From: a virus
Taxonomy: Duplodnaviria > Heunggongvirae > Uroviricota > Caudoviricetes
IMG/VR virus record: IMGVR_UViG_3300015157_000044
Length of the DNA stretch: 25,265 nucleotides
Reading direction: 5' to 3' (one strand)
The first letter of the stretch is position 1, and each line of letters starts with the position of its first letter. The notes below the pieces were generated by a model. The model did no database searches, was not told where the DNA came from, and saw only the letters and a list, made by a program, of their open reading frames with translations. This document shows, piece after piece, positions 5,445 to 23,369 of this stretch. A program made the translations under genes and the position numbers.

Positions 5445-5503
5445 ACAAAAAACCCGCCAAATCTGCTTTGTCAGTTATTTACATCGCAGAAGATGTGGCG
5501 GGG
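5445..5503 (-). terminator. Terminator-like hairpin on the minus strand after the secreted-protein gene
   Basis: Inverted repeat CCCGCCA (5496-5502) / TGGCGGG (5451-5457) followed on the minus strand by a T6 run (plus A-run 5445-5450). The ~38 nt loop is long for a classical intrinsic terminator. Confidence 0.3.
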
Positions 5504-5521: not shown

Positions 5522-6016
5522 CTATCTGAGTTGAACATCAATGGAATAAACATTACCACTCTTTATAAATTTAGAGTCCGTCCTTTCATCAAAGGATTCA
5601 AATGACTGTACCTTTGAAAACTTTTTCATTTTATTTTCAAAAATACTTTCATTAACACCAGTTAAATACTTGAATGCTCTACCAGCAAGGACCTCATTAC
5701 TTAAAGTTTTTGTGTTTTTATTGTCTTTGAAAAACCAAATAATAACCTTTTGTGGACATGATGGATTATAAACAGATATATAAAACTGCGGCTCATATTT
5801 TTCATCAGCGTCATCACTGAGCATTTCTTCAGAAGATAATTCTCTTCTGAATTCATATTGCCGCTTAGTTATTCCTTCATCCTTTATTATCTCTTGCTTA
5901 ACTGGTGCAATACCTATAGAAGAGATTAATTCTGACTCATTAAAGCTGAACTTACACTCTTCCGCAGCCAAGTTAAAAGATAAAAGTGCAGATATAAAAA
6001 AAACAAAGATACGCAT
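5522..6016 (-). CDS. Secreted hypothetical protein (single-gene AT-rich insert in the tail module)
   Basis: ORF 5522..6034 in the track; the likely start is ATG 6016 (GAAGGG Shine-Dalgarno 6 nt upstream), giving MRIFVFFISALLSFNLAA as a signal peptide. The gene is visibly AT-rich against GC-rich flanks and lies between the tape measure and DNA circulation genes. Mature part has two Cys. Confidence 0.6.
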   Translation of the reverse strand: MRIFVFFISALLSFNLAAEECKFSFNESELISSIGIAPVKQEIIKDEGITKRQYEFRRELSSEEMLSDDADEKYEPQFYISVYNPSCPQKVIIWFFKDNKNTKTLSNEVLAGRAFKYLTGVNESIFENKMKKFSKVQSFESFDERTDSKFIKSGNVYSIDVQLR

Positions 6017-19312: not shown

Positions 19313-19772
19313 TTACCACCCCGCCAGCCTCTTTAAATCGGGCAATCAGGTCACCGATTTTATGTTCATACTGACCGTAACCTGCACCGGGTAATGACGC
19401 CCAGATATTGCTGCAACGAGCGATAGCCTGACGAATATCGCCGCAATCAATCATCGGTAAAGCACCACGCTCTTTAATCTGCTGCAGCGCTACAGCGTCC
19501 TGGCTTTCTGGAGAAAAATCTTTCAGGCCAAGCTGTTTACGGTAAGTATCCCACCAGCGTGAAAGAAGCTGGTAACGTCCAGCGGCTGTTGATTTGAGTT
19601 TGAGGTTTAGCATGACAAGTTTGCGAGGGTGATCGGAGTAATCAGCGAACAGTTCGCCACCAACAATAACGTCATAACCGTGGTTACGTGTCGGTTGTCG
19701 CCCGTTATCCGTTCCTTCTGACCATGCCACCATATCAAGGAAAGCTTTACGCTGGGAATTTAGAGCCTGCAT
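19296..19772 (-). CDS. R: Endolysin, lambda R-like lytic transglycosylase
   Basis: 158 aa; from memory the sequence (QRKAFLDMVAWSEGTDNGRQPTRNHGYDVIVGGELFADYSDHPRKLV...) is nearly collinear with phage lambda R. Sits between the holin and Rz. Confidence 0.9.
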   Translation of the reverse strand: MQALNSQRKAFLDMVAWSEGTDNGRQPTRNHGYDVIVGGELFADYSDHPRKLVMLNLKLKSTAAGRYQLLSRWWDTYRKQLGLKDFSPESQDAVALQQIKERGALPMIDCGDIRQAIARCSNIWASLPGAGYGQYEHKIGDLIARFKEAGGVVNEVEL

Positions 19773-19775
19773 AAA

Positions 19776-20111
19776 TTACTCCTTCGAGCTACCAAATTTA
19801 TTACCGATTACTCGCATTGCAGCCCCACGAATAGCATCGACACCGATCAGCCCCACGCCACCACCAATGGCAACAGAAAGCGATTTAGGCCATCCGACAT
19901 ACTCAAGCGCGGATGCAAAAGTCAGCGTCAGAGCACCACAGAGCAAAATCTCGAGCGTTTTTCGCTTCCAGCCACCACCACCACCAAAATAAGCAATACG
20001 CAAACCAGCCATAACGATCGACATAATCACTGCGCCAAGAGGCGTATCTCCACGCCACCAGCTCTGGAAAATCTCCAGCCAATCCGGCCATGTGTTTGGA
20101 TTATGGGGCAT
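19776..20111 (-). CDS. Putative holin
   Basis: 111 aa ORF with hydrophobic segments, ending 4 nt upstream of the endolysin gene; GAGGTGA Shine-Dalgarno upstream. Confidence 0.65.
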   Translation of the reverse strand: MPHNPNTWPDWLEIFQSWWRGDTPLGAVIMSIVMAGLRIAYFGGGGGWKRKTLEILLCGALTLTFASALEYVGWPKSLSVAIGGGVGLIGVDAIRGAAMRVIGNKFGSSKE

Positions 20112-20192
20112 GAATATCGTCTCTCACCTCGTAAGTTATGCAGGCGACATATAAAAAGTTAAATAAAATAGTTGAATCAGATTGAGACATGG

Positions 20193-20222
20193 AAAAGGCT
20201 CGCCTGTGCGAGCCTTTTATTT
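20193..20222. terminator. Hairpin terminator between the two-gene insert and the holin
   Basis: Stem GGCTCGC / GCGAGCC (20197-20203 / 20208-20214) with loop CTGT, flanked by AAAA on one side and TTTTATTT on the other. The U-tract is stronger for plus-strand transcripts (TTTTATTT) than minus-strand transcripts (TTTTCC). Confidence 0.5.
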
Positions 20223-20291
20223 AGGTAGAGTGTTATAATAAAATCAAATTTACATTATCTTCTTCCAAAAAGAAGATAATCATCATATCCT

Positions 20292-21581
20292 TCAGAGCTC
20301 CTGATAAGCAGGTTGCAATTTTTCACACCACTGCCTTAAAGTAGAAGCCCTTCTCTTTATTGTTTTGGAGCTGAGAGATATACATCTATCTTGCAAAAAT
20401 CGTTCAGCTGTAAGTGGATCGAGCTCAGAAAGATTTTTAGCCTGACTCCAGGTAATCCACGCCCACCCGCAATGACTTGTTTCAAAACCGCGTGCAGCGA
20501 TTCTTAGTCTCTTATCATAGTCAGATTCAACCAATTGCTGACCAAGAGCTGAAACAGAACCATTACTATTTAGTAACCCAAGTATTTTGGCCGCATGAAT
20601 ATAATACAATATATGTCGATTATCCAGACCAGTACTAATCAGGTTCAGATGCTTCTCTTGCCATTTTAATTCAACTATCTTAAACACTTGTTCAATTAGG
20701 TTAGCCTGCGGTACCTGATAACTACTAACAACTTGAGTAGCCATTTTAATCAATGTGCCAGAATAGAACTCAGCATCAGTTTTTCTGACTCTAAGAATAA
20801 TATCATCAGTCACATTACTTTTTAGTTCAAAACATGAACTTGTCTCTATCACACTTTCAAATAAAGCAGATAACATCTGAACATCGATATTATTCTGTTT
20901 AACAAAACCAATAATATCTTTTCTTGATAGAATCAGCTCATTTAGTTTTTTCAGCAATGGTTCAATTTGCTGCATTTTATCTGCCTTGAATGAAAGAACA
21001 AATGAACCAGGACGTCCAGATACTGGACTCATTACATCTTTTTCATCAAATGCAGCTAATATTGATGAATAGAAATCATTAAAACACTCAAAAAGCTTCG
21101 AGACGCCTTTTAAAACCAAGGGTTCCACAGAAGTTGCTGTTTTCTCCACATGAATCTCATGCGTAGAGAATTCTACCTCCTTTCCAATTTTACCATTAGG
21201 TAATACAGGAAGAACACTACTAATATATAAGTTAGGTTCTGGAATTTTTATCTTCTCATTTAACTCAGAAACATTTATTTTTATTTCATCAACATGATTA
21301 TCTTCATAGTAAATATTAAACTGATAGCAAAGCTTTTGTTCTTGATACACTAAAACACTTCTAATATCAATTCTTTTACGCTCGAAGTGCTCCAACCTAT
21401 CTTTTGAAATCGGTATGATAATCCATTTATCATAATCTTCTTCGTCGCCAATCCAATAGACAACAAACATGCTATTTATTTCATTAGACACAGAGAAAAG
21501 TTTTGGCTCTTCGAAGAACTCATAAATTTTTTGCATATATAATGTGCCGAACACACTATCTTCCAAAAAAATATTGCTCAT
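20292..21581 (-). CDS. Hypothetical protein, 429 aa (distal gene of the AT-rich two-gene insert; function unknown)
   Basis: Long AT-rich ORF with a GAGAGGTGG Shine-Dalgarno; its ATG overlaps the stop of the upstream gene (ATGA). No Walker A, HNH, or other motif recognised by eye. Confidence 0.75.
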   Translation of the reverse strand: MSNIFLEDSVFGTLYMQKIYEFFEEPKLFSVSNEINSMFVVYWIGDEEDYDKWIIIPISKDRLEHFERKRIDIRSVLVYQEQKLCYQFNIYYEDNHVDEIKINVSELNEKIKIPEPNLYISSVLPVLPNGKIGKEVEFSTHEIHVEKTATSVEPLVLKGVSKLFECFNDFYSSILAAFDEKDVMSPVSGRPGSFVLSFKADKMQQIEPLLKKLNELILSRKDIIGFVKQNNIDVQMLSALFESVIETSSCFELKSNVTDDIILRVRKTDAEFYSGTLIKMATQVVSSYQVPQANLIEQVFKIVELKWQEKHLNLISTGLDNRHILYYIHAAKILGLLNSNGSVSALGQQLVESDYDKRLRIAARGFETSHCGWAWITWSQAKNLSELDPLTAERFLQDRCISLSSKTIKRRASTLRQWCEKLQPAYQEL

Positions 21582-22018
21582 CTAACCACCTCTCTTATAC
21601 AGGTGAATTTTTCATGAACTCGAGCATCTTTACAAAGCCAAATGGTAAAATGAGTCGAATCAGGAGCTCCTGTTTTTAGCATTCTTCCATCCTGTGGATT
21701 CAACTCGCCTTTAGCAATAAACCTTTCACCTATTCCTTCAGGAAATTTATTAAATACATTTACCAGTGATGTTTCGTCCATGAACATAGAAACACCATAG
21801 CAGCATTTCAATTTTAACCCTTGGAACTTTTTCATTCTTTTTGGGTTTTCTTCTTTCATGTTTAAAAAACAAGCTTTCCCAGGTGGATTATTTCTGGCTA
21901 AGCGATAAAAAACCCCTTCAGCATCCAAGGACTCTTTTGGAGGAACATCTGCAGGAAAATAATCGGGAAAAATCTGTTGGGCAGAGTCTTCAAGAACCTG
22001 CTGTGCATTTTTAGTCAT
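21578..22018 (-). CDS. Hypothetical protein, ~146 aa (proximal gene of the AT-rich two-gene insert; function unknown)
   Basis: ORF 21578..22045 in the track begins at a TTG; the first ATG is 22018 (MTKNAQQVLEDSAQQIFPDYF...). Translationally coupled to the 429 aa gene. No recognisable motif. Confidence 0.65.
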   Translation of the reverse strand: MTKNAQQVLEDSAQQIFPDYFPADVPPKESLDAEGVFYRLARNNPPGKACFLNMKEENPKRMKKFQGLKLKCCYGVSMFMDETSLVNVFNKFPEGIGERFIAKGELNPQDGRMLKTGAPDSTHFTIWLCKDARVHEKFTCIREVVR

Positions 22019-22045
22019 ACAATACGCTACCCAAGTAATTAACAA

Positions 22046-22616
22046 AAATCTGCCAATTTATTGGATATACACGTCCCAAATCCCTTGGCATCGTATTGAA
22101 TATAACAACAAGCACATTAATCACATATGCAATAAAGGCATAAAAAACACAACATATATAGCAAAAAGAAATCAACAACAATATACGGGATGATGAGGTT
22201 TTTTTTATCTATATATAGTGGCTGGGCAAAAGAATTGTTATAAAGTTGGCGTCCCTTGCTCCCATGTAATCATATGAAACACAGGATATAATTCCTGAAG
22301 GTAATCACATACTTCCCTAGATACATAGATGAGAGACTAAAATAAAACCTACCGCCAAGAACTATGCTTTTTTCAACCAATCGTACTCTCTGCCCTGTCT
22401 AAAAGGCGGCCATTCAAAGCAAGTACTTATTCTTTTATGTTTATCAAGAAGCTACTAAGACTATTCAGAACTGATATTTGGATAACAAAATACCTACTTG
22501 ATGGCGGGTTCTTGAAGATTCTCAACGGCAGACATACAAAGCCCATCGTTGAGAAAATCTTATCCATATTTTTTGAAAAATGCAAGCATCATGTCGCCAT
22601 CTTCGGCGAAAATCAC
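22046..22616 (-). promoter_or_regulatory. AT-rich non-coding region between the Q-like gene and the insert; expected site of the late promoter and Q-utilisation elements
   Basis: 570 bp without a credible minus-strand ORF. Candidate sigma70-like promoter on the minus strand, TTGCAT (22580-22585), 17-nt spacer, TAAGAT (22557-22562), followed by inverted repeat TCTCAACG / CGTTGAGA (22547-22554 / 22520-22527). Assignment is positional and weak. Confidence 0.3.
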
Positions 22617-23369
22617 TTATCTCGTCACCTTTCTCAATTGTGCTTCAGCGTAAGATTCCTCCTGCCAGCACTTTGTAACCAGTTTATCAATGACATTTGC
22701 ATATCCTTTGTACCACTGATAATCAGTCAGGTCCGGTACCAGCTTCTGGACATGATGCCGCGCCAGTGTGGTTGGTAAACGACTAAACCGTTTTCCATTG
22801 CAACGCCCACAAATCTTATAAACAGGTGTGCCATGAAGCCGGGTCCTTTTTTCATCCAGGACAATACCTTTACCCTTACACCCTCTGCACGCTGTGCTGA
22901 CTTCTCCCTTACCATGACAATGCTGACATAGTTCCTTCACCCACTCTTCCTTGATAACAGATTCCCCGCTTCTGGAGTGTTTCACCACTTCGCGCAATAC
23001 ATTATGAAATCCAGTACCAGCACAATGCTCACAGCGAGCCTTACTTGCCGCAGACCTGGAATAATCAGCAAAGGCAAAATTCACAAGGTAAGGGATGATC
23101 TGTAACCGGGTTTCTTCACTCAATTTGTTCAATGTCGGGTTATCCAGTGCCATCGCGTAATTGAGCAGACCTTCAATCGCAAATTGAGGATCCTGAACAC
23201 CAACTTTTGCCAGGAATAAGGCAAACCCAAGCGGTGCTTTCGACTGCACCATCCCCTGCGCAGCCATCACATCCGTAATCGTTAAACCACCTGAGCCTGT
23301 CGCCGGTGCGTCATCGCTCAATTTTGGAGATTTTGGGGAGTAATATTTTGGTAAGGCTTCAAGGTTCAT
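22617..23369 (-). CDS. Putative late antiterminator Q-like protein with four CxxCxGxG zinc-finger repeats
   Basis: ORF 22617..23411 in the track; likely start is ATG 23369 (GGAGAA Shine-Dalgarno), giving 250 aa. Contains CEHCAGTG, CQHCHGKG, CRGCKGKG and CGRCNGKR. It is the last early-region gene before the late/lysis region. Confidence 0.5.
   Translation of the reverse strand: MNLEALPKYYSPKSPKLSDDAPATGSGGLTITDVMAAQGMVQSKAPLGFALFLAKVGVQDPQFAIEGLLNYAMALDNPTLNKLSEETRLQIIPYLVNFAFADYSRSAASKARCEHCAGTGFHNVLREVVKHSRSGESVIKEEWVKELCQHCHGKGEVSTACRGCKGKGIVLDEKRTRLHGTPVYKICGRCNGKRFSRLPTTLARHHVQKLVPDLTDYQWYKGYANVIDKLVTKCWQEESYAEAQLRKVTR

What the first reader, a model, noticed from the sequence alone, without database searches (positions are those of the whole stretch)
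20292..22045. Two-gene cassette of unknown function in the Q-to-lysis cargo slot: candidate undescribed defence or abortive-infection system
Two translationally coupled minus-strand genes (~146 aa then 429 aa, ATGA overlap) lie exactly between the Q-like gene and the holin. This is where lambdoid phages carry accessory cargo, for example Shiga toxin genes in Stx phages. The cassette is much more AT-rich than the flanking phage genes, and it is followed by two hairpins before the holin. Neither protein shows a motif I can recognise by eye: no Walker A, no HNH, no signal peptide, no transmembrane segment. A small protein followed by a large one in a prophage accessory slot is a common layout for anti-phage systems and toxin-partner pairs, but the function is entirely inferred from context.
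Basis: partly seen in the sequence, partly recalled or inferred. Interest (0 to 1): 0.85.

Follow-up and report, generated by a model that had tools for sequence, protein, structure and literature searches.

The report
PD-T4-10-like defence pair in prophage
Two overlapping genes inserted between the late-gene regulator Q and the lysis genes of an E. coli prophage are a divergent relative of PD-T4-10, a toxin-antitoxin-type anti-phage system already validated in E. coli, so the cassette is real and defence-like but is not a new kind of system.

Summary
Two translationally coupled minus-strand genes (146 aa and 429 aa, ATGA overlap) sit in an AT-rich ~2.4 kb insert between Q and the holin, followed by two hairpins.

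PADLOC profiles match both proteins to PD-T4-10 A and B. PD-T4-10 is a two-ORF toxin-antitoxin/abortive-infection system validated by Vassallo et al. 2022, and its mechanism is unknown. The match is distant: the B profile aligns only to the first ~120 residues.

The pair is strictly conserved as a unit. An A-family ORF precedes B in 60 of 60 testable IMG/VR prophage loci and in 11 of 11 other loci from five phyla.

Three results appear to be new:
- The small "antitoxin-like" protein is predicted to have an ADP-ribosyltransferase-type fold, with near-invariant Arg39, Ser77 and His123 across 142 diverged relatives.
- The conserved core of the superfamily is A plus the N-terminal ~120 aa of B (the core of DUF6575). 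The C-terminal modules of B are swapped between lineages. Here the module is a BrxA-like tandem winged helix.
- Some relatives carry a CmdC-like SecB chaperone as a third gene.

Which partner kills the cell is unresolved. Verdict: a new variant of a known kind, of moderate interest.

The parts
21578..22018 (-). Gene A: 146-aa small protein of the PD-T4-10_A superfamily. It has a predicted ADP-ribosyltransferase-type fold. Arg39, Ser77, Gly111, His123 and Trp127 are near-invariant across the superfamily.
20292..21581 (-). Gene B: 429-aa large protein (DUF6575 family), translationally coupled to A through the ATGA overlap at 21578-21581.
   Evidence: Pfam DUF6575, E 8e-37. 63 full-length homologue clusters. 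AlphaFold2 model with pLDDT 91.
21222..21581 (-). B-N domain (aa 1-120): beta-rich, the core of DUF6575. It is the only part of B that matches the PD-T4-10_B profile and the only part shared by all relatives. Proposed docking domain for A.
   Evidence: PADLOC PD-T4-10_B, E 2e-8, aa 23-120 against profile positions 26-120 of 353. Pfam DUF6575, E 1e-31 on aa 3-120 alone. Shared with the Oscillatoria, Rhodococcus and Firmicute partners. Its divergence tracks that of A.
20712..21221 (-). B middle region (aa 121-290): alpha/beta, with conserved T140-H141-E142, K147 and R190-x-G192-S193-F194. No solved structural relative was found.
   Evidence: Invariant columns. The 'GSF' motif is shared with the Oscillatoria, Rhodococcus and L021 partners. 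Foldseek against the PDB found nothing below E 0.4.
20295..20711 (-). B C-terminal domain (aa 291-429): tandem winged-helix, BrxA-like or FokI-recognition-domain-like (DUF7226-like). It is the most conserved part of B within Enterobacterales.
20254..20280 (-). Hairpin 1 downstream of B: perfect 10-bp inverted repeat TTATCTTCTT/AAGAAGATAA, 12 bp including flanking pairs.
20193..20218 (-). Hairpin 2: GC-rich stem GGCTCGC-ACAG-GCGAGCC flanked by an A-run and a U-run. It looks like an intrinsic terminator and would close the cassette before the holin.
   Evidence: The strict terminator scan did not pick it up because it has only 4 U.
22019..22503 (-). AT-rich non-coding leader that belongs to the insert. 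The last ~110 nt (22019-22112) are conserved with the Citrobacter and Pantoea cassettes. They contain an extended -10-like TGTTATATT (22099-22107) and a conserved hairpin plus U-run (22044-22090).
   Evidence: The insert boundary comes: only window 22504-22620 is shared with more than 1200 E. coli prophages. Alignments. Promoter function is inferred, not shown.

Best explanation
The cassette is a prophage 'moron': a self-contained two-gene toxin-antitoxin-type abortive-infection module of the PD-T4-10 superfamily. It was acquired horizontally and inserted between Q/pR' and the lysis genes.

Proposed mechanism:
1. A and B are made together from one coupled message, probably from the cassette's own promoter in the lysogen. 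The transcript ends at the hairpin terminator before the holin.
2. The small protein A docks on the N-terminal DUF6575-core domain of B and keeps B inert.
3. By analogy with the PD-T4-10 genetics, B is the growth-arresting effector. In this variant its C-terminal BrxA-like tandem winged helix would bind nucleic acid.
4. A is not a passive plug. It has an ADP-ribosyltransferase-type fold with near-invariant Arg39, Ser77 and His123. I therefore propose that it neutralises B enzymatically or in an NAD-dependent way. That would be a type-VII-like logic. Arg74 of B-N, which is nearly universal, is a candidate acceptor residue.
5. Infection by a foreign phage disturbs A or the A-B complex. B is released, and the cell stops growing before the invader completes its cycle.

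Shown: gene structure, family assignment, conservation of the pair, and the predicted folds.
Inferred: defence by this cassette, which partner is toxic, enzymatic neutralisation, and the trigger.
For: Family assignment:
- PADLOC matches A to PD-T4-10_A (E 5.6e-10, nearly full length) and B to PD-T4-10_B (E 1e-7).
- Pfam matches B to DUF6575. Vassallo et al. list DUF6575 among their new defence domains.

PD-T4-10 genetics: two overlapping ORFs; B is toxic; A neutralises it; A cannot be deleted; deleting B abolishes defence against T4; the phenotype is abortive infection.

The pair behaves as one unit:
- An A-family ORF sits directly upstream of B in 60 of 60 testable IMG/VR loci.
- The same holds in 11 of 11 loci from Enterobacterales, Vibrio, Cyanobacteria, Actinobacteria and Firmicutes.
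- Neighbouring replication, Q and lysis modules differ between loci.

Moron features: a GC drop, a conserved leader with a -10-like box, and a terminator-like hairpin. The cassette is present in only 3 of 5426 complete E. coli genomes.

A docks on B-N: their divergence runs in parallel. A/B-N identities are 66/61, 37/35 and 29/34%, while the C-terminal domain of B stays more conserved at 81, 53 and 48%.

A looks like an enzyme: ART-type fold. R39 is kept in 140, S77 in 142, H123 in 141 and W127 in 141 of 142 sequences at about 25% mean identity.

B C-terminal domain: BrxA-like and wHTH hits.
Against: - The homology to PD-T4-10 is distant. The B profile aligns only over positions 26-120 of 353, so the toxic determinant of PD-T4-10B may not be shared with this protein.
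- I could not obtain the canonical PD-T4-10 sequences for a direct comparison.
- Every structural neighbour of A that has a known role in a toxin-antitoxin pair is the toxin, not the antitoxin.
- Distant relatives with the order A-like, B-N protein, CmdC-like SecB chaperone look like toxin-antitoxin-chaperone operons. That would make A the toxin.
- A has no catalytic Glu, so ADP-ribosyl transfer is not assured.
- No promoter met the consensus scan criteria.
- Nothing here tests phage defence.
Confidence: 0.45

Rival explanations
1. Reversed polarity. A is the toxin: an ART-superfamily enzyme that acts on NAD+ or ADP-ribosylates a cellular target. B is its antitoxin. B-N neutralises A (and may help it fold), and the C-terminal winged helices of B serve for autoregulation or as the phage sensor. 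Infection inactivates or titrates B and frees A.
For: - Fold neighbours of A include the RES toxins, ParT, MbcT, Rhs Tre toxins, DarT and Scabin.
- A has a near-invariant polar triad.
- Relatives have the gene order A-like, B-N protein with a tail, CmdC-like SecB chaperone. This is the order toxin-antitoxin-chaperone seen in CmdTAC.
- The minimal Catonella pair has a B made of the B-N domain alone, with no room for an effector domain.
- DNA-binding domains are typical of type II antitoxins, as in Xre-RES (established knowledge).
- The CmdT correction shows that an ART toxin can be non-toxic when expressed alone.
Against: In PD-T4-10, B alone is toxic, A rescues it, A cannot be deleted and deletion of B is viable. 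This is the opposite of what the model predicts, unless that branch has changed. Within Enterobacterales, B is on the whole more conserved than A. A lacks the catalytic Glu of R-S-E and H-Y-E ARTs, and the Glu of the RES triad is only about 50% conserved.
Confidence: 0.27
2. The cassette is a plain addiction or selfish toxin-antitoxin module, or a late-expressed phage accessory function such as superinfection exclusion or lysis-timing control. It rides in a permissive slot and has no role in defence against other phages.
For: The cassette lies downstream of the Q/pR' region, so it would also be transcribed late under antitermination. Many toxin-antitoxin modules have no demonstrated defence role. 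No other defence genes are adjacent.
Against: Its only characterised relative is a defence system recovered by functional selection. The pair occupies at least three different accessory slots around the lysis cassette in unrelated prophages, and also sits on plasmids and chromosomes. That pattern fits portable cargo and does not fit a lysis function. No homologue occurs in 50,697 sequenced phage genomes, so it is not a core phage function.
Confidence: 0.15
3. It is an ordinary, canonical PD-T4-10 system that standard pipelines would already annotate, so nothing here is new.
For: Both PADLOC models hit.
Against: B covers only 27% of the PD-T4-10_B profile. Among 142 representatives of the A family, none scores better than 1e-14 against PD-T4-10_A, so the canonical system is a separate branch. 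RefSeq annotates the genes as 'hypothetical' and 'DUF6575 domain-containing'. I could not run PADLOC or DefenseFinder with their coverage rules.
Confidence: 0.08

Closest known systems
PD-T4-10 (Vassallo et al. 2022, E. coli ECOR65; RCO36089.1 and RCO36088.1)
   Same: Two overlapping ORFs, small then large. A matches the A profile nearly end to end, and the N-terminal domain of B matches the B profile. Both contain DUF6575. Both are carried on mobile elements in E. coli.
   Different: The similarity is distant (E 1e-10 and 1e-7). B is 429 aa against about 353 aa, and only about 95 profile positions align. This variant carries a BrxA-like tandem wHTH C-terminus, and it is not known whether PD-T4-10B has one. 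Function has not been tested here.
CmdTAC / PD-T4-9 (ART toxin, antitoxin, SecB-like chaperone)
   Same: It includes an ART-fold protein and gives abortive-infection defence against T-even phages. Distant relatives of this cassette carry a third gene that matches PD-T4-9_C (CmdC) at E 2e-18, in the same gene order.
   Different: The window has no chaperone gene; the holin follows B. A does not match the PD-T4-9_A profile, and B-N matches PD-T4-10_B but not PD-T4-9_B. In CmdTAC the ART protein is the toxin.
RES-Xre, ParST and MbcTA toxin-antitoxin systems
   Same: The best structural neighbours of A are RES-domain toxins (8gug, 9r35, 6d0h, 6fkg, 8qnl). The partner protein carries a helix-turn-helix-type DNA-binding domain.
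   Different: There is no Pfam RES hit. The conserved residues are R, S and H, not R, E and S. The gene order is reversed (ART-like gene first). In the PD-T4-10 experiments the ART-like partner behaves as the antitoxin.
Type VII toxin-antitoxin systems (HepT/MntA) and DarTG, which have enzymatic antitoxins
   Same: These are precedents for an antitoxin that is an enzyme with invariant catalytic residues and is encoded upstream of its toxin (established knowledge).
   Different: The folds are different (nucleotidyltransferase and macrodomain). As far as I know, no ART-fold antitoxin has been described. Enzymatic neutralisation is only a hypothesis here.
BrxA (DUF1819) of BREX, and the FokI DNA-recognition domain
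   Different: There is no sequence-level match. The Pfam hit is to DUF7226, just below its cut-off. The genomic context and partner proteins are different.
Lambdoid morons in the Q-to-S slot (for example stx)
   Same: Same position downstream of Q/pR'. Lower GC than the flanks. Own terminator-like hairpin.
   Different: The cargo is a toxin-antitoxin-like pair and not a virulence factor. No tRNA genes accompany it.

Membership tests
PD-T4-10 defence system | Two overlapping ORFs, a small A followed by a larger B | tested here: met
   146 aa then 429 aa, with an ATGA overlap at 21578-21581.
PD-T4-10 defence system | A matches the PD-T4-10_A profile | tested here: met
   E 5.6e-10 over profile positions 24-147 of 148. 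The score is low (37 bits), so it places A in the superfamily and not in the canonical branch.
PD-T4-10 defence system | B matches the PD-T4-10_B profile over most of its length | tested here: not met
   Only profile positions 26-120 of 353 align (E 1e-7). The middle and C-terminal regions give no PADLOC hit even at E 10.
PD-T4-10 defence system | B is toxic, A neutralises it, and the pair gives abortive-infection protection against T-even phages | not testable with these tools
   Known only for the ECOR65 system.
DUF6575 (PF20215) | Score above the Pfam gathering threshold | tested here: met
   127 bits against a cut-off of 26.6, aa 3-223. Most of the signal lies in aa 3-120.
ADP-ribosyltransferase superfamily (protein A) | Split beta-sheet ART fold | tested here: met
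ADP-ribosyltransferase superfamily (protein A) | Canonical catalytic triad (R-S-E or H-Y-E) at b1, b2 and b5 | tested here: not met
   Arg39 on b1 and Ser77 on b2 are present, but the b5 position carries the invariant His123 and not Glu. I inferred the spatial equivalence from topology and did not superpose the structures.
ADP-ribosyltransferase superfamily (protein A) | NAD+ binding or turnover | not testable with these tools
   This needs biochemistry.
RES domain toxins (PF08808) | Pfam RES match and a conserved Arg-Glu-Ser | tested here: not met
   No Pfam hit for any of the 19 members at E up to 10. Glu56 is conserved in only about half of 142 sequences.
Toxin-antitoxin-chaperone (TAC) systems | A SecB-like chaperone gene immediately downstream of the pair | tested here: not met
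   In the window the next gene is the holin. A chaperone is present only in the distant relatives L017-L020.
BrxA / DUF1819 | Tandem winged-helix fold and a sequence-family match | tested here: inconclusive
Phage moron (autonomous cargo cassette) | Foreign base composition, own promoter and own terminator, variable presence in otherwise similar phages | tested here: inconclusive
   The composition shift, the terminator-like hairpin and presence in 3 of 5426 genomes against more than 1200 that share the adjacent pR' region all fit. The promoter is only a conserved extended -10-like box and was not found by the consensus scan.

The most novel reading that the evidence does not exclude
PD-T4-10-type systems belong to a large, unrecognised superfamily, with at least 693 clusters of the small protein at 50% identity. 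Its conserved core is an ART-fold protein with an unusual Arg-Ser-His signature, paired with the DUF6575 N-domain. In this reading the ART-fold protein is an enzymatic antitoxin or switch that ADP-ribosylates its partner, or couples it to NAD+. That would be the first ART-fold antitoxin. The partner's C-terminus is a swappable module: BrxA-like wHTH, a beta-rich PDC-M63B-like domain, or a tail with a CmdC-like chaperone.
Probability: 0.3. Interest if true: 0.75.

Novelty: new variant of a known kind. Interest (0 to 1): 0.5.

Why it matters
PD-T4-10 is a validated anti-phage system with no known mechanism and no predicted domains. This cassette and its relatives provide concrete, testable handles:
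- a predicted ART-type fold with three near-invariant residues (R39, S77, H123) in the component that behaves genetically as the antitoxin;
- a defined docking domain, B-N, the core of DUF6575;
- evidence that the rest of B is modular, including a BrxA-like DNA-binding module and chaperone-dependent versions.

If the ART-like protein acts enzymatically on its partner, this would be a new class of toxin-antitoxin neutralisation. It would also be another link between NAD/ADP-ribose chemistry and phage defence.

On the practical side, the B profile match covers only about a quarter of the model. Coverage-filtered annotation pipelines may therefore miss this variant, and may under-count this defence family in prophages of Citrobacter, Klebsiella, Serratia, Pantoea, Proteus and E. 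coli. I did not test this.

Tried and rejected
- **NCBIfam and PHROGs:** nothing useful for either protein.
- **Sequence and profile searches of the PDB** with both families: no credible hit.
- **Pfam on all 19 close A homologues** at E up to 10: only noise.
- **Foldseek of the B model against the PDB:** nothing below E 0.4. The N-terminal and middle domains therefore have no assigned fold. The AFDB libraries were unavailable.
- **megablast and tblastn against 50,697 phage genomes:** no homologue of either protein.
- **Canonical PD-T4-10 sequences:** I tried to get them from the paper's supplement, but it holds only accessions and HHpred tables. I also screened 142 A-family representatives with PADLOC. 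The best E-value was 1e-14, so none is canonical. A direct comparison was not possible.
- **The genome-contig scan with the A profile:** only 3 loci.
- **The broad A alignment as a pattern query:** it was too divergent to use.
- **The profile search of the 5.8-billion-protein set:** few distant members.
- **Rfam:** no credible RNA family in 19700-22900.
- **tRNA scan:** no tRNA in the window.
- **Chance ORFs:** considered and rejected, given the long ORFs in AT-rich DNA and the deep conservation.
- **A is a RES-domain protein:** considered and rejected, because the Glu is not conserved and there is no Pfam hit.
- **The cassette is a TAC system:** considered and rejected, because the window has no chaperone gene.
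Full report
**1. The observation**

The window carries two minus-strand ORFs at the stated place. The large one is 20292..21581 (429 aa). The small one is 21578..22045 (155 aa from a TTG).

The first ATG of the small ORF, at 22018, gives 146 aa. RefSeq uses this start in a 99.8%-identical E. coli chromosome, where the genes are annotated 'hypothetical protein' (WP_032236482) and 'DUF6575 domain-containing protein' (WP_032236481).

The two genes overlap in ATGA at 21578-21581, and a GAGGTGG ribosome-binding site precedes the second start.

The upstream neighbour is a Q antiterminator (PF03589, E 1e-53). The downstream neighbours are a lambda-family holin (PF05106), a lysozyme and Rz.

GC content falls to 0.30-0.39 between about 20200 and 22600, against 0.47-0.55 on either side.

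Two hairpins lie between the large gene and the holin. One has a 12-bp stem at 20254-20280. The other is GC-rich, has an 11-bp stem at 20193-20218 and carries a short U-run. The fold z-score is -3.3.

**2. Context and boundaries**

The window is the late region of a lambdoid prophage integrated at a tRNA-Thr gene next to proA.

Only window 22504-22620 is shared with more than 1200 E. coli genomes. This stretch is the last bases of Q plus about 110 nt downstream, where pR'/qut is expected. The stretch from the holin start to about 22503 is found in just 3 of 5426 complete genomes.

The cassette is therefore a foreign insert of about 2.4 kb, including about 485 nt of AT-rich leader. The last ~110 nt of that leader are conserved with the cassettes of Citrobacter and Pantoea. 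They contain an invariant TTGTTATATTCA box (extended -10-like, 22099-22107) and a conserved hairpin with a U-run. The simple promoter scan found nothing there, so an own promoter is plausible but not shown.

**3. What it is related to**

PADLOC profiles match both proteins to the two components of one system. The small protein matches PD-T4-10_A (E 5.6e-10, profile positions 24-147 of 148). The large protein matches PD-T4-10_B (E 1.1e-7).

PD-T4-10 came from a functional selection in E. coli. The authors reported the following (PMC9519451):
- It has two overlapping ORFs with no predicted function.
- B is toxic, A neutralises it fully, and A could not be deleted.
- Deleting B abolished resistance to T4.
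- The phenotype is abortive infection.

The same paper lists DUF6575 among the domains newly linked to defence. The large protein here matches Pfam DUF6575 at E 8e-37.

The relationship is distant. The B profile aligns only with residues 23-120, and the rest of the protein gives no PADLOC hit even at E 10. None of 142 diverse representatives of the A family scores better than 1e-14 against PD-T4-10_A. The canonical system is therefore another branch of a wide superfamily. I could not retrieve the canonical sequences for a direct comparison.

**4. The pair is a unit and is mobile**

Full-length homologues of B (about 430 aa, down to 27% identity) occur across Enterobacterales and in one Vibrio. 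Homologues of A occur in the same taxa.

The contexts vary:
- In Citrobacter prophages the pair sits between Q and the holin, while the replication and lysis modules differ between loci.
- In Proteus and Serratia it lies between an N6_N4 methyltransferase gene and the lysis genes.
- In Vibrio fluvialis it is next to filamentous-phage genes.
- It also occurs on Rahnella, Pantoea, Oscillatoria and Rhodococcus plasmids.

A scan of IMG/VR gave 61 viral or prophage loci. An A-family ORF lies directly upstream of B in all 60 loci where this could be tested. The slots are Q-pair-holin (about 21 loci), methyltransferase-pair-holin (7-8 loci), and about 1.1 kb downstream of the lysis cassette (about 20 loci).

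Neither protein has a homologue in 50,697 sequenced phage genomes. This pattern is that of portable accessory cargo.

**5. Predicted structures**

- the Rhs toxins TreX and TreTu;
- Scabin, heat-labile enterotoxin, pertussis S1 and DarT.

Across 142 of these sequences, at about 25% mean identity, five residues are almost invariant: Arg39 (140 of 142), Ser77 (142), Gly111 (142), His123 (141) and Trp127 (141). Arg39 lies on strand 1, Ser77 on strand 2, and His123 at the start of strand 5. These are the three positions of the ART catalytic triad, but His stands where R-S-E and H-Y-E enzymes have Glu. I inferred this mapping from topology and did not superpose the structures.

No sequence method links A to any ART family.

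*Protein B.* The model has pLDDT 91 and three parts:
- a beta-rich N-domain (about 1-120);
- an alpha/beta middle region (about 121-290);
- a helical C-terminal region.

**6. Architecture of the superfamily**

In every locus examined, the gene after an A-family gene encodes a protein that starts with the B-N domain. What follows B-N varies:
- B-N alone (148 aa, a Catonella MAG).
- B-N with a tail of about 100 aa, followed by a third gene that matches the CmdC SecB-like chaperone of PD-T4-9 (E 2e-18). These are Firmicute-type metagenome contigs.
- B-N, the middle region and a beta-rich C-terminus. This form occurs in Oscillatoria, Rhodococcus and a Lachnospiraceae MAG. In the last, the C-terminus weakly matches PADLOC candidate PDC-M63B.
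- B-N, the middle region and the BrxA-like winged helices. This is the clade of the window.

Arg39, Ser77 and His123 are kept in the A-like proteins of all classes where the aligned region covers them.

Between the window and other members of its clade, the divergence of A tracks that of B-N (A/B-N identity 66/61, 37/35, 29/34%). The C-terminal domain is the most conserved part (81, 53, 48%). This is what is expected if A contacts B-N.

**7. How it most likely works**

I think the cassette is a toxin-antitoxin-type abortive-infection module. I am fairly confident of the family assignment (about 0.85) and moderately confident of a defence role (about 0.6).

The difficult point is which partner kills:
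- The only experiments, on PD-T4-10, say B is toxic and A is the antidote.
- The fold of A, the chaperone-containing relatives arranged like toxin-antitoxin-chaperone operons, the B-N-only partner in Catonella, and the DNA-binding domain on B all point the other way.

One reading fits both sets of facts. A is an enzymatic or NAD-dependent antitoxin that keeps B inactive through B-N, as the type VII systems HepT/MntA do with a different fold. B acts through its variable C-terminal module, which here binds nucleic acid.

I commit to that reading at 0.45 and put the reversed polarity at 0.27. The authors' correction on CmdTAC shows that single-gene toxicity tests in such systems can mislead. There the ART toxin is harmless when expressed alone, because it needs its antitoxin to fold.

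The phage trigger is unknown. Arg74 of B-N is an Arg in 8 of 9 divergent partners and a Lys in the ninth. It is a speculative candidate acceptor residue.

**8. Comparison with what is known**

The system works like PD-T4-10 and belongs to its superfamily. It fails one membership feature: full-length similarity of B. I therefore file it as a variant and not as a canonical member.
- Protein A has the ART fold but not the canonical triad, and it is not a RES-domain protein by sequence.
- The window cassette is not a TAC system, because it has no chaperone gene.
- The C-terminal domain of B is BrxA-like by fold only.

**9. Novelty and limits**

The cassette is not an undescribed system. I did not find the following points in the literature I could search, where DUF6575 and PD-T4-10 appear only in the Vassallo papers and one survey:
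- the ART-type fold and the Arg-Ser-His signature of the A component;
- the A plus B-N core with swappable C-termini;
- the chaperone-linked relatives.

All of this rests on predicted structures, distant profile matches and gene neighbourhoods. Nothing here tests toxicity, NAD chemistry or defence.

Noticed in passing
L017:4001-5521 and L019:4001-5545 (metagenome contigs): These are three-gene relatives: an A-like 152-aa gene, an overlapping 220-226 aa gene whose product starts with the B-N domain, and a gene that matches the CmdC SecB-like chaperone of PD-T4-9 (E 2e-18). The layout is toxin-antitoxin-chaperone-like and would make the ART-fold protein the toxin. L019/L020 sit beside rnpA-yidC-mnmE and dnaA; L017/L018 follow sugar-metabolism genes.
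   Followed up: partly
L007:4659-5681, L016:4262-5305, L014:4856-5569; also L042-L048, L074, L079: In Proteus, Serratia, Vibrio and about 8 IMG/VR prophages, an N6_N4 DNA methyltransferase gene (PF01555) sits immediately upstream of the pair. This could be a linked third component or just a neighbouring moron. The window has no such gene.
   Followed up: partly
window 22044-22112 (- strand): The leader has a conserved non-coding block shared with Citrobacter and Pantoea. It contains an invariant TTGTTATATTCA box, then a hairpin UGCCAAGG...UUGGCA followed by a U-run, about 30 nt before the start codon of A. It could be a promoter plus attenuator or terminator. There is too little covariation to judge: 5 sequences and 1 compensatory pair.
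   Followed up: partly
alignment A4: Proteus L007 ~5900-5915, Serratia L016 ~5480-5495; window ~22185-22200: About 150 nt upstream of the A start, several cassettes carry a short palindrome of the form CAC-ATATA-GTG (CCCACATATAGTGGG in Proteus). It could be an operator for the winged-helix domain of B. In the window the equivalent position is degenerate.
   Followed up: no
L055-L073, L080-L083 (IMG/VR prophage loci): A clade of the pair (47-48% identity to the window B) sits about 1.1 kb downstream of the lysozyme/lysis genes and not upstream of the holin. This is a second accessory slot on the other side of the lysis cassette.
   Followed up: partly
H33: NZ_CP130276.1 3519-4019 (4,020-bp Salmonella enterica plasmid): tblastn matches only the C-terminal part of B (aa 263-429, 42.5% identity, E 5e-36) on a tiny plasmid with no annotated gene there. 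The match ends one base before the end of the circular record, so it may run across the record start. Either the winged-helix module occurs separately, or the gene is split by the record boundary.
   Followed up: no
L021:666-1841 (Lachnospiraceae MAG): The partner of an A-like gene has the B-N domain. Its C-terminus weakly matches PADLOC candidate PDC-M63B (E 5e-5). This hints at a link between this superfamily and another candidate defence family.
   Followed up: no
window 22011-22181 (- strand): A 56-codon hydrophobic ORF with a TTG start overlaps the conserved leader and the start of gene A. RefSeq does not annotate it in the identical locus. It is probably not a gene.
   Followed up: no
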